NCBI RefSeq assembly: GCF_058153355.1
Contig: NZ_CM177019.1
Length of the DNA: 64,000 bases
Reading direction: 5' to 3' (one strand)
Position 1 is the first letter of the stretch. Every line of letters begins with the position of its first letter. The position numbers are program-made. Positions 30,001 through 36,000 of this stretch are shown here, piece after piece.

Positions 30001-33000
30001 CTGAAACAAGGTATTCCACAAAATGTGATTGAAGCTGCCCAGCGTTCGCCAGTCTACAAAATGGCGATGGACTGGAAACTGGCGCTACCGCTGCACCCTG
30101 AATATCGCACCCTGCCGATGGTCTGGTACGTACCGCCGCTGTCACCAATTCAGTCTTACGCCGATGCGGGCGGCCTGCCGAAAAGCGAAGGCGTGCTGCC
30201 CGCCATCGAAAGCCTGCGTATTCCGGTGCAATATCTCGCCAATATGTTGAGTGCCGGTGATACCGGTCCGGTACTGCGGGCGCTGAAACGGATGATGGCG
30301 ATGCGCCACTATATGCGTTCACAAACCGTGGAAGGCGTTACCGATACCCGCGCCATTGACGAAGTAGGCCTGAGCGTCGCCCAGGTCGAAGAGATGTATC
30401 GCTACCTCGCCATTGCCAACTATGAAGACCGTTTTGTCATTCCAACCAGTCATCGGGAAATGGCGGGCGATGCCTTCGCAGAACGCAACGGCTGCGGTTT
30501 CACCTTTGGCGACGGTTGCCACGGTTCAGACAGCAAATTCAACCTGTTCAACAGTAGCCGTATCGATGCCATCAACATCACCGAAGTGCGCGACAAAGCG
30601 GAGGGAGAATAATGCAGATCCTCAAAGTGATCGGCCTGTTGATGGAGTACCCGGACGAGCTGTTGTGGGAGTGTAAGGACGACGCGCTGCCATTAATCCG
30701 CCGCGACGCGTCGATGCTCACCGATTTTGCACTCGTCCTGCTCAACGCGCCGCTGCTGGATAAACAGGCCGAATGGTGTGAAGTGTTCGACCGCGGGCGC
30801 ACCACGTCGCTGCTGCTGTTCGAACATGTTCATGCCGAATCCCGCGATCGAGGCCAGGCAATGGTGGACCTGCTGGCGGAGTATGAAAAGGTCGGTCTGC
30901 AACTGGATTGTCGGGAACTGCCTGATTATCTGCCGCTGTACCTGGAGTACTTAAGTGTGCTGCCGGACGATCAGGCAAAAGAAGGATTACTCAACGTTGC
31001 GCCGATCCTCGCCCTGCTTGGCGGACGCTTAAAACAACGCGAGACACCGTGGTACGCGTTATTTGACGCCCTTTTGCAACTGGCAGGAAGTCCCCTGTCA
31101 AGTGACAGTGTCACAAAACAAATTCGTAGTGAAGAGCGTGACGACACCCGCCAGGCGCTGGATGCGGTGTGGGAAGAAGAACAGGTGAAGTTTATTGAAG
31201 ATAACGCCACGGCGTGTGACAGCTCGCCGCTTAATCAATATCAGCGACGCTTTAGCCAGGATGTCGCGCCGCAGTACGTCGACATCAGTGCGGGAGGTGG
31301 GAAATGATTCAGTATCTGAACGTCTTTTTTTACGATATCTACCCATACATTTGTGCGACGGTGTTTTTCCTTGGCAGCTGGCTGCGCTATGACTACGGGC
31401 AGTACACCTGGCGCGCCTCCTCGAGCCAGATGCTCGATAAACGCGGGATGGTGATATGGTCGAATCTGTTCCATATCGGCATTCTGGGGATCTTCTTCGG
31501 TCATCTGTTCGGCATGTTAACGCCGCACTGGATGTACGCGTGGTTTCTGCCGGTGGCGGTAAAACAGCAGATGGCGATGGTGCTCGGCGGTATTTGCGGT
31601 GTGTTGACGTTGATTGGCGGCGCAGGACTGCTGTGGCGCAGGCTGACAAATCAGCGCGTGCGTGCCACTTCCACCACGCCGGATATTATCATCATGAGCA
31701 TTTTGCTGATCCAGTGTCTGCTGGGGCTAAGTACCATACCGTTTTCAGCACAGTATCCTGATGGTAGCGAAATGATGAAGCTGGTGGGTTGGGCGCAAAG
31801 CATTGTCACTTTCCGTGGTGGATCGTCAGAAATGCTTAACGGCGTAGCGTTCGTTTTCCGCCTGCATCTGGTATTGGGAATGACCATCTTCCTGCTCTTT
31901 CCGTTCACCCGGCTGGTGCATGTGTGGAGCGCGCCGTTTGAGTACTTTACTCGTCGGTATCAGATTGTGCGTTCGCGGCGATAATTCTCCCCCTAGCCGG
32001 ATAGTCCTTCGCTCTCCGGCCACTTGCAGGCTATGATAGTTCTCCAGCCACAGGAGAACGTTAATGAAACCGCAGGTTTATCACGTCGATGCTTTTACCG
32101 CTCAACCGTTTCGCGGCAATTCTGCCGGTGTTGTTTTTCCCGCCGATAAACTTAGCGAAGCGCAAATGCAGCTTATCGCCCGCGAATTAGGTCATTCGGA
32201 AACTGCTTTTCTGCTGCACTGCGACGACAGCGATGTACACGTTCGATACTTTACGCCAACGGTTGAAGTGCCAATTTGCGGTCACGCAACGGTGGCTGCG
32301 CACTATGTGCGTTCAAAGGTATTAGGTTTGGGAAATTGCACGGTCTGGCAAACGTCGCTGGCAGGAAAACATCGCGTGACTATCGAAAAGCACAACGATG
32401 ATTATCGTATTTCGCTGGAACAAGGTACGCCGGGCTTTGAGCCACCGCTGGAAGGTGAAACACGTGCGGCGATTATCAACGCATTGCATCTTACCGAAGA
32501 CAATATTCTGCCGGGTTTGCCAATCCAGGTGGCAACCACAGGACACTCAAAAGTGATGATCCCGTTGAAACCAGAAGTGGATATCGACGCCCTTTCGCCT
32601 GACCTTGCTGCGCTGACCGCTATTAGTAAACAGATTGGCTGCAATGGTTTTTTCCCGTTCCAGATCCGCCCTGGCAAAAATGAAACCGATGGTCATATGT
32701 TCTCACCAGCGATAGGTATTGTGGAAGATCCGGTGACCGGGAATGCCAATGGCCCGATGGGCGCATGGTTGGTACATCACAACTTACTACCCCATGATGG
32801 CAGCGTGTTGCGTGTTAAAGGCCATCAGGGGCGCGCACTGGGGCGTGACGGCGTGATTGATGTGACGGTGACAATTCGAGATAACCAACCGGAGAAAGTT
32901 ACCATTTCCGGCACGGCGGTGATTCTTTTCCATGCTGAATGGGCCATTGATTTTTGATACCGTTGCCTGATGCGCTTCGCTTATCAGGCCTACAACCGGG

Positions 33001-36000
33001 CTAATGTGGGCCGGTTGTAGGCGTTTACGCCGCATCCGGCCCCTGGCACAAACTATTTCCCCGCCTCCGGATGCGTATCAAACGCCGCCATCACCAACGC
33101 CAGTTCATCCACAGTAAAGCCATGCTTTGCGTCATCTACGCCCAGACCAAACTGCTCCTGCATCACGGCATATAACGACGCCACATCCGGTAGATTTCGC
33201 TGCTCCACTGCATGTCCATTTTCATAATGGGTGAAATGAAAATTGGTCAGTGTCAGTTTGCCACCGTCCGGCAAATGGCGGCACATCAGCAAATGATGGC
33301 GAAAATGCGATTGCGGCCAGTGCGCAGACCAGAAATTGCCCATTATATAATCGCTTTGTTGCTGCTCGCAGAGATCAAAACGGTACATCGACTGCCAGTG
33401 CTGATGATGATTAAACTGCAACACCCAATCATCACCCTCCTGTAACAACCGATACTCTCCGTGTGGCGTGATCTGCACGAGATCGGGAACTAAACGAATC
33501 GGCGCGGTTAGCGTCTGTCCACCGAAACCGACATCAGCAATCCATTTTTCCCCTTCCAGTTCCACCAACAACAAACGATGGGTGCGCGGCGGTAATGCTG
33601 GCGGATTAGATAACACTACGCGCCCTAACAGACTGCGTACCTGAAAACCCAGCTCGCGTAACACCCGCTCAAACACGCCATTCTGCTCAAAGCAGTAACC
33701 ACCACGCCGGGCGAGCACCAATTTCTCTTCCAGCGATTGATCATCAAGCTGCATTTCTCTCGGCAGTAAAACATCGAGATTTTCAAATGGAATGGTGCAA
33801 TTGTGTTTCAGGTGTAATGCGCGCAGCGTTTCGATATTGACCGCAGCCGCTCCCGACCAGTTAATGCGGGTAAAATAGTGATTCAGAATGGGCGTCATCA
33901 GGCGTTTCCGTTTGTGGTTTTCTCAATTTATAACCTGGAATAGACGCCGCACCGGCTATTTTGTGCGATCGCGGACATGCATCACGTTCGCAAATCGCCA
34001 ATCCCGTTAATTTCGTTGCTTATTGCGTTACGAGCTACGCTTTTAAAACACCCTTCATAGCGAGGCGATATCGTGAGCCGATTCATCCCTGTCGAATTAC
34101 ACCATGCCAGCCGTCTGTTAAATCATGGCCCAACTGTCTTGATCACCAGTTTCGATGAGCAATCCCAGCGGCGTAACATTATGGCAGCAGCTTGGTCAAT
34201 GCCGGTGGAGTTTGAACCGCCACACGTGGCAATTGTGGTAGATAAATCGACATGGACCAGGGACTTGATTGAACGTAATGGTAAGTTTGGCATCGTTATC
34301 CCGGGTGTTGCAGCAACTAACTGGACGTGGGCGGTGGGAAGTGTCTCGGGTCGAGAAGAAGATAAATTTAATTGCTATGGCATTCCGGTTGTGAAAGGTC
34401 CGGTGCTTGGATTGCCGCTGGTTGAAGAGAAATGTCTGGCATGGATGGAGTGTCGATTGCTACCAGCGACTTCTGCGCAAGAAAAATACGATACGCTATT
34501 TGGCGAAGTGGTATCGGCAGCGGCAGACGCACGAGTATTTGTCGAAGGCCGCTGGCAGTTTGATGATGACAAACTCAATACACTACATCATTTAGGTGCT
34601 GGCACGTTTGTTACCAGCGGGAAGCGAGTTACGGCAGGTTAAGCATTACATGCTGTAACCAGGTTTCTTTATCAGCGTCTCCATTTGGGGCGCAATTTCG
34701 GCGTCCCAGACAGCTTGCCATGATTCTGGTTGAATCTGCTGTAGAGCAATGCTTATCGAACTGTCTTTACTGTTCAGATGGCGAATAATAACGTCGGTAA
34801 TATCTGCAGCAAGTGCTGCTTTTTGTTGTTCGTCCAGTTCACGTGGAAAACATTTAATGTCTATGTGCGGCATGATTGTGCTCCTTTTGAAAGATGTCAG
34901 TAAAATTAACACACGTTGTGAATGTTATGTGTCCGGTGATGCTTTTTTACGGCAATAATGCCTACTTGAATTTGTACAGATTTGTACTACACCCTTTTAA
35001 ATAAAGCGCCAACAAAAAACGTCAACTTGCAGAATATATTCTTCGCCAACATGCCATTAAGAAACATCAAGTTCCCGGCTTGCCAATTTATTAACGCCCA
35101 TTATAGTTATTCTTGCCCTCACAAAAATTTTCATCCGTAATTACCCCCAATAAAAGTCCATTCTGGAGACGCTTAAGATGCAGCTTAATCATATTGTTAA
35201 AAGTCTGCTAATAACGGGATTATTCACCACCAGTTCTTTGCCACTCCTCGCGGCGGAAGCCCCTAAAGACGCCACCGCAGCCACGCAACAAGCAAACAAT
35301 TTACTCTACAACCAGTTGCCGTTTTCTGATAACACTGACTTTACTGATGCCCATAAAGGTTTTGTTGCCCCTATCCCTCAAGACGTGATTAAGGGCGAAA
35401 AAGGAAATGTTATCTGGGATCCACAACAATACGCTTTTATTAAAGAAGGTGATAAAGCCCCTGATACGGTGAATCCAAGTTTATGGCGTCAGGCGCAACT
35501 GATAAATATCAGCGGATTATTTGAAGTGACTGAAGGTGTCTATCAGATTCGTAACCTCGATTTATCAAATATGACCATCATTGAAGGCAAAGAGGGTATT
35601 ACCATCGTTGATCCCCTTGTTTCAGCAGAAAGAGCCAAAGTGGGTATGGATCTCTATTACAAAAATCGCGACAAAAAACCGGTAGTAGCGGTTATCTACA
35701 CACACAGTCATGTCGATCACTACGGTGGTGTTCGCGGCGTAATTGATGAAGCTGACGTTAAATCAGGCAAAGTTAAAATCTACGCGCCAGCCGGATTTTT
35801 GGAGGAAGCCGTTTCCGAAAATATTATGGCTGGCAATGTGATGAGCCGACGAGCCAGTTATATGTATGGCAACTTATTGAAACCTGATGTTAAAGGCCAG
35901 GTTGGCGCGGGACTGGGAACAACCACTTCAGCAGGAACGGTCACGTTGATTGCTCCTACTAACTACATCACCAAAACCGGACAAAAAGAAACTATTGACG

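What the first reader, a model, noticed from the sequence alone, without database searches (positions are those of the whole stretch)
32961..33046. REP/BIME elements at several convergent gene ends
REP-type palindromes occur at 8618-8656, 25243-25300, 32961-33046 (inverted pair), 40716-40745 (partial) and 55901-55930. They are ordinary for E. coli but mark operon boundaries and could confound repeat or CRISPR finders.
Basis: partly seen in the sequence, partly recalled or inferred. Interest (0 to 1): 0.15.

Follow-up and report, generated by a model that had tools for sequence, protein, structure and literature searches.

The report
Ordinary REP pair between yddE and nhoA
The flagged sequence is an ordinary pair of E. 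coli REP hairpin repeats in the short gap between the converging genes yddE and nhoA. It matches an element already annotated in strain K-12, with one small change found only in this lineage.

Summary
Confirmed and ordinary. The window is E. coli chromosome, matching K-12 at about 1.50-1.565 Mb in reverse orientation. Positions 32964-33041 hold two inverted REP units in the 95-bp gap between yddE and nhoA. One is a near-consensus z1 unit (32964-32993, minus strand, E 2.6e-12). The other is a y unit (33006-33041, plus strand, E 6.5e-4). A 12-nt linker separates them. This is the ortholog of K-12's annotated REP118.

The other four listed sites differ in quality:
- 55900-55933 is a good y unit, the ortholog of K-12 REP117.
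- 25245-25269 is a collapsed z-type unit (E about 0.01). It lies between tandem genes, not convergent ones.
- 40734-40750 is only half a unit.
- 8618-8656 cannot be told from chance by similarity to the REP consensus.

One new detail emerged. In this lineage (18 of 5,426 complete genomes) a 5-nt cluster of changes rewrote the y stem. It is now the exact reverse complement of the z1 tail, giving a perfect 12-bp palindrome. This damages the y unit and favours a single long hairpin. The change looks like a templated (quasipalindrome) mutation.

The likely role is inferred from the literature, not shown here: a 3'-end RNA hairpin that acts as a decay and readthrough barrier for both genes. Interest is low.

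The parts
32964..32993 (-). z1-type REP (palindromic unit). On the minus strand it reads GTAGGCCTGATAAGCGAAGCGCATCAGGCA; on the plus strand it is the inverted form ending in CTAC. GTAG and the AA bulge are intact.
   Evidence: Covariance model 47.2 bits, E 2.6e-12. Consensus score 55 of 60. Exact copies of this 32-mer occur at other loci in E. coli genomes, median 3 places per genome.
32994..33005 (.). 12-nt tail-to-tail linker AACCGGGCTAAT. It has no IHF-like site and looks like a remnant of a long L-type linker.
   Evidence: Alignment with strain EFF60, whose linker is 23 nt longer and carries an IHF-like ATTCAATAAATTA. That long form is present in 100 of 5,426 genomes. The CTAAT-GTAG junction is also seen at the end of an L-type linker in L012.
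33006..33041 (+). y-type REP, degraded: GTGG replaces GTAG, and the bulge region ATAAG is replaced by TTGTAG.
   Evidence: Covariance model 20.4 bits, E 6.5e-4. The orthologous unit scores 55.5 bits in K-12 and 58.3 bits in E. whittamii. Alignments.
32988..33022 (.). Lineage-specific perfect palindrome: arms GCCTACAACCGG (32988-32999) and CCGGTTGTAGGC (33011-33022) with an 11-nt loop. It spans the z1 tail, the linker and the rewritten y stem.
   Evidence: 12 nt, 100% complementary. The hairpin folds at -26.0 kcal/mol, against -7.9 for the K-12 allele and -12.9 for the A36 allele. The 43-mer is found in only 18 of 5,426 genomes.
32955..32957 (+). yddE stop codon (TGA), 7 nt upstream of the z1 stem.
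   Evidence: ORF 32064-32957. Annotated as yddE in matching genomes.
33053..33055 (-). nhoA stop codon (TAG on the minus strand), 12 nt from the base of the y stem.
   Evidence: ORF 33053-33898 on the minus strand. Annotated as nhoA in matching genomes.
55900..55933 (-). Single y-type REP between yncJ (+, stop 55884-55886) and rlhA (-). Ortholog of K-12 REP117. Its tetranucleotide is GTCG, not GTAG.
   Evidence: Covariance model 37.5 bits, E 2.8e-9. Alignment to K-12. REP117 coordinates.
25245..25269 (-). Collapsed z-type REP whose apical part is deleted. It sits in the narU-narZ gap between tandem genes. A REP 3'-half-like fragment follows at 25276-25288.
   Evidence: Covariance model 16.7 bits, E about 0.01. 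Consensus score 29. K-12 has lost a further 13 bp here.
40734..40750 (-). Half of a y REP (TGCCGGATGCGGCGTGA) between ansP and yncE, next to a terminator-like hairpin at 40688-40716.
   Evidence: Consensus score 34, just above the best shuffle score of 33. No covariance-model hit. The K-12 ortholog is more degenerate.
8616..8655 (.). REP-like fragments and a hairpin between ddpF and osmC. REP identity is not demonstrable.
   Evidence: Scores of 20-22 are below the shuffle background. No covariance-model hit. Hairpin z-score -3.7 on the minus strand. 72 of 75 positions identical to K-12.
13629..13670 (.). Empty site. The yddM end is followed by a single terminator-like hairpin, where K-12 carries two tandem BIME-1 elements. 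The first is annotated REP120 (1552072-1552168). The second is unnumbered in my sources and is presumably REP121.
   Evidence: Alignment of the window to the K-12 fdnI/yddM gap. Both K-12 elements are detected.

Best explanation
Positions 32964-33041 are an ordinary REP doublet (an 'atypical BIME'). A z1 unit and a y unit lie tail to tail, 12 nt apart, and fill the 95-bp gap between the converging genes yddE and nhoA. The doublet is the vertically inherited ortholog of K-12 REP118.

Origin (inferred): it is a relic of the REP family thought to be spread by the REP-associated tyrosine transposase TnpA-REP. It most likely began as a z1-L-y BIME-1 whose long linker later lost 23 bp.

Function (inferred from the REP literature, not shown here): both genes are transcribed into the element, so each mRNA ends in a G+C-rich hairpin with no U-tract. 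Such a hairpin would block 3'-to-5' exonucleases and slow or stop readthrough into the antisense of the opposite gene, with Rho finishing termination. The stems start 7 nt and 12 nt after the two stop codons, so the element may also dampen translation termination of both genes.

Lineage-specific change (shown as a sequence fact; the mechanism is inferred): a 5-nt cluster (ATA-A to TTGTA) made the y stem the exact complement of the z1 tail. This is the signature of an intrastrand template switch at a quasipalindrome. The predicted fold shifts from two REP hairpins to one long hairpin.
For: Family membership:
- Covariance-model E-values of 2.6e-12 and 6.5e-4 for the two units, from a model trained on unrelated loci.
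- Consensus scan against shuffles, with REP325 recovered in full as a positive control.
- The only Rfam family with even sub-threshold hits is the REP325-derived naRNA4.
- Exact copies of the z1 unit occur at other loci in E. coli genomes.

Orthology:
- Alignments to K-12 and the published REP118 coordinates.
- The same yddE and nhoA flanking genes in more than 5,100 genomes.

Anatomy and structure:
- No intrinsic-terminator pattern in the gap.
- Predicted folds of -44.4 kcal/mol (yddE sense) and -43.4 kcal/mol (nhoA sense) for the 95-nt gap. On the 101-nt stretch 32955-33055 the values are -44.4 and -45.1 kcal/mol, z -3.2 and -3.5.
- Central hairpin -26.0 kcal/mol against -7.9 and -12.9 for other alleles.

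Direction of the change:
- The canonical GTAGGCCGGATAAGGCG is found in most E. coli alleles, in the outgroup E. whittamii and in the y consensus.
- The window form is found in 18 of 5,426 genomes.

Recognised as a REP in nature: IS1397, an insertion sequence that targets REP units (PMC1525189), sits in the loop of this very y unit in strain ECO21.

Literature for function:
- About 60% of K-12 REPs lie between convergent genes, and convergent gene pairs with a REP between them show higher expression than pairs without one.
- An in vitro Rho-binding site lies 18-51 nt from K-12 REP118, on the yddE-sense strand.
- REPs within 15 nt of a stop codon can lower translation (PMC12306157, citing Liang et al. 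2015).
Against: - No expression, 3'-end or half-life data exist for this strain. All functional statements are transferred from K-12 or from REPs in general.
- The y unit here lacks GTAG and the AA/GC bulge, both required by TnpA-REP in vitro. It is therefore probably no longer a transposase substrate.
- The template-switch origin rests on a sequence signature and on parsimony with one outgroup. Gene conversion in the opposite direction is not strictly excluded.
- The GTAG-to-GTGG change is not explained by the template switch.
Confidence: 0.9

Rival explanations
1. The palindromes are chance G+C-rich hairpins or ordinary intrinsic terminators, not members of the REP family.
For: Convergent gene ends commonly carry terminator hairpins. 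The 8618-8656 site and the 40688-40716 hairpin are of that kind, and the former shows no significant REP similarity.
Against: - For 32964-33041 and 55900-55933 the covariance-model E-values run from 6.5e-4 down to 1e-12.
- Sequence identity to the consensus is 29 of 30 positions for the z1 unit.
- Exact copies occur elsewhere in E. coli genomes.
- No U-tract follows either stem.
Confidence: 0.02
2. In this lineage the element no longer works as two REP hairpins. It works as one long REPIN-like hairpin or cruciform, created by the 12-bp perfect palindrome, and has different properties: a stronger bidirectional barrier, or a fragile or recombinogenic DNA palindrome.
For: - The minimum-free-energy fold on both strands is a single long hairpin.
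- The central stem is -26.0 kcal/mol, against -7.9 and -12.9 in other alleles.
- The y unit's covariance-model score drops from 55-58 bits to 20 bits.
- The 95-bp gap is 100% identical in all three carriers compared.
Against: - The y unit folded alone is still -25.0 kcal/mol, so the two-hairpin form stays competitive. It would form first during transcription from the nhoA side.
- The identity among carriers extends over a 275-394-bp tract that includes coding sequence. This points to shared recombination history rather than selection on the palindrome.
- There are no functional data.
Confidence: 0.3
3. The element is a protein-binding chromosomal site of the BIME-1/RIP kind (IHF) or the BIME-2 kind (DNA gyrase), rather than an RNA-level element.
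For: - REPs and BIMEs are reported binding sites for IHF, gyrase and Pol I (PMC3333891; PMC1525189).
- A long-linker allele with an IHF-like motif exists at this locus in 100 genomes.
Against: - The window's linker is 12 nt and has no IHF-like motif.
- It has z1, not z2, and is a single copy, unlike the tandem y/z2 arrays of BIME-2.
- The REP325 study found no nucleoid-level role for its model REP.
Confidence: 0.05

Closest known systems
E. coli K-12 REP118 (yddE/nhoA intergenic; 1534884-1534958)
   Same: Same locus, same flanking genes, same order and orientation (z1 unit, 12-nt linker, y unit) and the same gap length of 95 bp.
   Different: 81 of the 94 gap positions that align are identical (87.2%). 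In K-12 the z1 unit is the degraded one (13.2 bits) and the y unit is intact apart from GTAT (55.5 bits). In the window the z1 unit is intact (47.2 bits) and the y unit is degraded (20.4 bits). The window also has the perfect 12-bp central palindrome.
BIME-1 / RIP elements (z1 - long L linker with IHF site - y), for example K-12 REP120 at fdnI/yddM
   Same: Same unit types (z1 and y), tail-to-tail arrangement and single copy.
   Different: The linker is 12 nt, against about 36 nt for L, and there is no IHF-like motif. A 23-nt-longer linker with such a motif survives at this locus in 100 of 5,426 genomes. This suggests the short form is a deletion derivative.
REPINs (REP doublets forming one long hairpin; Bertels and Rainey, PMC3116915)
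   Same: Two inverted REPs that can fold into one long hairpin.
   Different: E. coli y and z1 units differ in sequence. Here the long hairpin owes its stability to a secondary, lineage-specific conversion and not to two identical REPs. There is no evidence of recent mobility: one locus per genome.
Quasipalindrome (template-switch) mutations
   Same: A tight cluster of two substitutions and one insertion converts an imperfect inverted repeat into a perfect one.
   Different: This is inferred from natural alleles only, and the event itself was not observed. That such mutations are a known class in E. coli is from my own knowledge, not from a paper read here.

Membership tests
REP / palindromic unit (E. 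coli y, z1, z2 classes) | Sequence and structure match to the y, z1 or z2 consensus: an imperfect palindrome of 29-37 nt | tested here: met
   Covariance model trained on unrelated loci: 47.2 bits (z1, 32964-32993), 20.4 bits (y, 33006-33041) and 37.5 bits (y, 55900-55933). Not met for 8618-8656 or 40716-40745, which gave no hit.
REP / palindromic unit (E. coli y, z1, z2 classes) | Conserved GTAG tetranucleotide 5' of the palindrome (PMC8266576, PMC3333891) | tested here: inconclusive
   Present in the z1 unit (CTAC at 32990-32993 on the plus strand). The y unit has GTGG at 33006-33009 and the 55900-55933 unit has GTCG. K-12's own annotated REP118 y unit has GTAT, so annotated REPs do not always keep it.
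REP / palindromic unit (E. coli y, z1, z2 classes) | AA/GC mismatch bulge inside the stem (PMC8266576) | tested here: inconclusive
   Kept in the z1 unit (GAUAAGC...) and in the 55900 unit (GGUAAGG). Lost in the y unit at 33015-19, where TTGTA replaces ATAA (alignments).
REP / palindromic unit (E. coli y, z1, z2 classes) | Extragenic, high-copy and dispersed in the genome | tested here: met
   All copies lie in intergenic gaps. The z1 32-mer has exact copies at other loci in E. coli genomes, median 3 and up to 9 places per genome. One such locus, L008, was read.
BIME-1 | z1 and y units, single copy, separated by the conserved long L linker, which often has an IHF site (PMC3333891) | tested here: not met
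   Unit types and single copy are met. The linker is 12 nt with no IHF-like motif. Compare the K-12 REP120 linker of about 36 nt.
BIME-2 | z2 and y units in tandem multiple copies with a short S linker and s, l or r flanks (PMC3333891) | tested here: not met
   The unit is z1 (30 nt), not z2, and there is one doublet only. Compare REP325 with 12 alternating z2 and y units.
Atypical BIME | Chimeric combination of BIME-1 and BIME-2 parts, such as y and z1 with a short linker (PMC3333891) | tested here: met
   y and z1 with a short linker. The source says atypical BIMEs usually occur in multiple copies, whereas this one is single. A similar z1 - 16 nt - y doublet exists at another locus (L008).
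Substrate of TnpA-REP (RAYT) | Single-stranded REP with GTAG and the stem bulge is bound and cleaved at CT dinucleotides | not testable with these tools
   By sequence, the z1 unit keeps both features and has CT sites nearby. The y unit has lost both (for the requirements). Whether this strain encodes tnpA-REP is unknown, because the gene lies outside the window.
Intrinsic (Rho-independent) terminator | G+C-rich hairpin followed directly by a U-tract | tested here: not met
   The terminator scan finds none in 32958-33052. The stems are followed by GUUUACGC on the plus strand and CUGAUAAG on the minus strand.
CRISPR array | Three or more regularly spaced direct repeats with unique spacers | tested here: not met
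   The repeat search finds no such array. REP units occur singly or as one inverted pair.

The most novel reading that the evidence does not exclude
The lineage-specific allele records a natural template-switch (quasipalindrome) mutation inside a BIME. The mutation converted two separate REP hairpins into a single REPIN-like long hairpin and removed the transposase-recognition features (GTAG and the bulge) of one unit. If this is general, it would be a mutational route by which REP doublets decay or are remodelled independently of the RAYT transposase. The new palindrome could also measurably change the 3'-end formation of yddE and nhoA.
Probability: 0.3. Interest if true: 0.25.

Novelty: already known. 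Interest (0 to 1): 0.08.

Why it matters
The practical value is for annotation.
- These REPs mark the 3' ends of yddE, nhoA, yncJ and rlhA and should be masked in repeat or CRISPR screens.
- Comparison with K-12 shows how quickly REP content changes between E. coli lineages. Two K-12 BIME-1 elements are absent here. Different units of the same doublet have decayed in different lineages. One strain carries IS1397 in the doublet, and 100 genomes keep a longer linker.
- The templated conversion is a neat but minor example of palindrome-driven mutation.

Nothing here bears on an open question about REP function.

Tried and rejected
- The Rfam gathering-threshold scan of the whole window found only the fdnG SECIS element. 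Rfam has no REP family. At a permissive threshold only the REP325-derived naRNA4 gave sub-threshold hits.
- The copy of the K-12 RefSeq record held in the tool carries no REP features. REP coordinates therefore had to come from a preprint supplement.
The 10-mer GCCKGATGCG with one mismatch was too noisy: 24 hits against 11.6 expected.
- Literature searches for yddE + nhoA + REP and for 'REP119' found nothing useful. I could not establish whether the narU/narZ, ansP/yncE or ddpF/osmC remnants are annotated as REPs in EcoCyc.
- I considered that the 100% identity of the gap among carriers showed selection on the palindrome. I rejected this because the identical tract extends 275-394 bp into both genes, which points to a shared recombination tract.
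- I considered that the yddE-nhoA segment was an introgressed island. The whole window is about 2-10% diverged from K-12 in most 500-bp tiles, so the source is simply a divergent minority lineage labelled E. coli.
- The single genome-contig scan returned only E. whittamii at the orthologous locus, plus an unrelated Pseudocitrobacter BIME. Other Escherichia species did not match the pattern, so the polarity of the change rests on one outgroup.

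
Full report
**Where the window comes from.** The ORF map and megablast against complete E. 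coli genomes place the window on the E. coli chromosome. It matches K-12 at about 1.50-1.565 Mb in reverse orientation. The gene order is dosP, ddpXABCDF, osmC, maeA, adhP, fdnIHG, yddG, narUZYWV, yddE, nhoA, yddH, ansP, yncE, pqqU, patD, ydcVUTS, ydcR, yncJ, rlhA. The source belongs to a minority lineage. Most 500-bp tiles are 90-98% identical to K-12. The closest complete genome, strain N96, is 99.7% identical over fdnGHI.

**The observation at 32961-33046.** The 95-bp gap 32958-33052 lies between yddE (+, stop TGA 32955-32957) and nhoA (-, stop 33053-33055). Reading the sequence shows three parts:
- 32964-32993: TGCCTGATGCGCTTCGCTTATCAGGCCTAC. This is the inverted form of a z1 REP and matches the 30-nt consensus at 29 positions.
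- 32994-33005: a 12-nt linker, AACCGGGCTAAT.
- 33006-33041: GTGGGCCGGTTGTAGGCGTTTACGCCGCATCCGGCC, a y-type REP in the GTAG-first orientation.

**Consensus scan.** I took the y, z1 and z2 consensus sequences from memory and checked them in three ways. Their lengths fit those given in PMC8266576. They agree with the published consensus quoted in PMC12306157. They match real K-12 elements (REP120; all 12 units of REP325). A Smith-Waterman scan of the window gave 7 tiles scoring 34 or more, against none in 40 dinucleotide shuffles, whose best score was 33.

**Covariance model.** I built a model only from REPs at loci that are not orthologous to anything in the window. With filters off it gave these hits over the whole window:

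| Position | Strand | Bits | E-value | Unit |
|---|---|---|---|---|
| 32964-32993 | - | 47.2 | 2.6e-12 | z1 |
| 55900-55933 | - | 37.5 | 2.8e-9 | y |
| 33006-33041 | + | 20.4 | 6.5e-4 | y, degraded |
| 25245-25269 | - | 16.7 | about 0.01 | collapsed z |

Everything else had E above 0.8. The z1 32-mer also has exact copies at other loci in E. coli genomes, with a median of 3 places per genome. That shows directly that it is a dispersed repeat.

**The other listed sites.**
- 55900-55933 is a solid single y unit between yncJ and rlhA, which are convergent.
- 25245-25269 is a z-type unit whose apical part has collapsed. A REP 3'-half-like fragment follows at 25276-25288. It lies between narU and narZ, both on the plus strand, so this site is tandem and not convergent. 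K-12 has lost a further 13 bp there.
- 40734-40750 is the 17-nt half unit TGCCGGATGCGGCGTGA between ansP and yncE. Its consensus score of 34 is only just above the best shuffle score, and the covariance model gives no hit.
- 8618-8656 (ddpF/osmC) contains an 11-mer and a mismatched 15-mer resembling REP 3' ends. Their scores of 20-22 are below the shuffle background. The same 11-mer also occurs inside an ORF at 38147-38157. The site does form a good hairpin, but I cannot call it a REP.

All five gaps are orthologous to K-12 and 87-96% identical to it. These are old, inherited features, not recent insertions.

**Relation to annotated elements.** The K-12 record held by the tool has no REP features. 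The supplement of bioRxiv 10.64898/2026.03.23.713779 lists three relevant elements, all marked 'Convergent':
- REP118 at 1534884-1534958 (yddE/nhoA).
- REP117 at 1508792-1508824 (yncJ/rlhA).
- REP120 at 1552072-1552168 (fdnI/yddM).

The first two align with the window's elements. REP120 and a second identical BIME-1 beside it are absent from the window. There, the yddM end is followed directly by one terminator-like hairpin at 13629-13670.

**Which kind of BIME.** PMC3333891 defines three kinds:
- BIME-1 is z1 plus y with a conserved long L linker, which often carries an IHF site.
- BIME-2 is tandem arrays of z2 plus y with short linkers.
- Atypical BIMEs are chimeras of the two.

The window's element has BIME-1 units but a 12-nt linker, so it is an atypical BIME. 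Strain EFF60 and 99 other genomes carry a linker 23 nt longer at this locus, with an IHF-like ATTCAATAAATTA. The CTAAT-GTAG junction is also the end of an L-type linker in an unrelated BIME. The short linker is therefore probably an internal deletion of L. This is an inference.

**The lineage-specific change.** Most E. coli alleles (N62, A36, MP1, O157, K-12, strain 104, EFF60) read GTAG or GTAT, then GCCGGATAAGGCG. So does the outgroup E. whittamii. The window reads GTGGGCCGGTTGTAGGCG.
- The cluster ATA-A to TTGTA makes CCGGTTGTAGGC (33011-33022) the exact reverse complement of GCCTACAACCGG (32988-32999). It is one of only three perfect local inverted repeats of 12 nt or more in the window.
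- The covariance-model score of the y unit falls from 55-58 bits in K-12 and E. whittamii to 20 bits.
- The central hairpin strengthens to -26.0 kcal/mol, from -7.9 in K-12 and -12.9 in the A36 allele. The best fold on both strands becomes one long hairpin.
- The 43-mer spanning the change occurs in 18 of 5,426 complete genomes, once each.
- Three carriers were compared over 1 kb. They share a mismatch-free tract of 275-394 bp around the gap, embedded in flanks that are 2-6.5% diverged. That looks like a shared recombination tract, not selection on the palindrome itself.

I read the cluster as a templated quasipalindrome mutation. This is an inference from the signature and from parsimony with a single outgroup.

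In K-12 the opposite unit has decayed: z1 scores 13.2 bits. In strain ECO21 the REP-targeting insertion sequence IS1397 sits in the loop of the y unit (specificity from PMC1525189).

**How it most likely works.**
- Shown here: the element lies in both 3' untranslated regions. Its stems start 7 nt and 12 nt after the two stop codons. It has no U-tract and it folds strongly on both strands.
- Inferred from the literature: REPs in 3' UTRs act, depending on context, as barriers to 3'-to-5' decay and as partial Rho-dependent terminators. Convergent gene pairs with a REP between them show higher expression than pairs without one. An in vitro Rho-binding site lies 18-51 nt beyond K-12 REP118 on the yddE-sense strand. 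REPs within 15 nt of a stop codon can lower translation.
- None of this was measured for this strain.
- IHF binding is unlikely because no IHF-like motif is present. The y unit has lost the GTAG and the bulge that TnpA-REP needs in vitro.

**Verdict.** The finding is correct in substance and ordinary. It is a known repeat family at a known, annotated locus. The only new detail is a small lineage-specific palindrome-perfecting change. Interest is low.

Noticed in passing
window 2423-2435, 31102-31114, 50199-50211, 62856-62868: Four copies of the 13-bp palindrome GTGACAnTGTCAC, sharing an exact 15-mer AAGTGACAGTGTCAC (chance expectation 0.12). Two lie inside coding sequence in narW and ydcV, and K-12 has the same sites at the orthologous positions. 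From memory, the motif fits the matS consensus GTGACRNYGTCAC, the MatP-binding sites of the Ter macrodomain. That agrees with the chromosomal position.
   Followed up: partly
window 10536-10538 (maeA, 10047-11744 +): maeA carries an in-frame TAG where K-12 has CAG (Gln in LGLGDQGIGG). The 565-codon gene is split into ORFs of 172 and 397 aa. This is either an amber pseudogene in this strain or a sequencing error.
   Followed up: partly
window 13629-13670 versus K-12 1552072-1552346: K-12 has two tandem copies of a unit of about 180 bp between fdnI and yddM. Each unit carries a canonical BIME-1: a z1 unit, an L linker and a y unit. The first is annotated REP120. The window has the empty site with a single terminator-like hairpin.
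   Followed up: partly
L009 (E. coli ECO21, NZ_CP139887.1 2411255-2411610): IS1397, an IS3-family element known to target REP units, is inserted in the apical loop of the y unit of this same yddE/nhoA doublet.
   Followed up: partly
L010 (E. coli EFF60) 458-576, and 100 of 5,426 genomes: A structural allele of the yddE/nhoA doublet has a linker 23 nt longer that contains an IHF-like motif. It is probably the ancestral BIME-1 form.
   Followed up: partly
window 22033-22080: Eight tandem copies of the hexamer ATCCTC inside the 413-aa ORF 20915-22156. This region (about 19.6-23.6 kb) differs from K-12, which has the yddL, yddK and yddJ remnants there.
   Followed up: no
window 17638-17696 (-): Rfam SECIS_3 selenocysteine insertion element (84.3 bits), at the in-frame UGA of fdnG.
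   Followed up: no
window about 35000-38200: About 3 kb (ORFs 35178-37154 and 37201-38298) has no counterpart in the K-12 stretch compared. K-12 has pptA, ydcC, yncI and rhsE remnants at that position.
   Followed up: no
window 48089-48123: A perfect 14-bp inverted repeat, CGTACTGTCAGAGA-N7-TCTCTGACAGTACG, just downstream of patD. It is the longest perfect local hairpin in the window.
   Followed up: no
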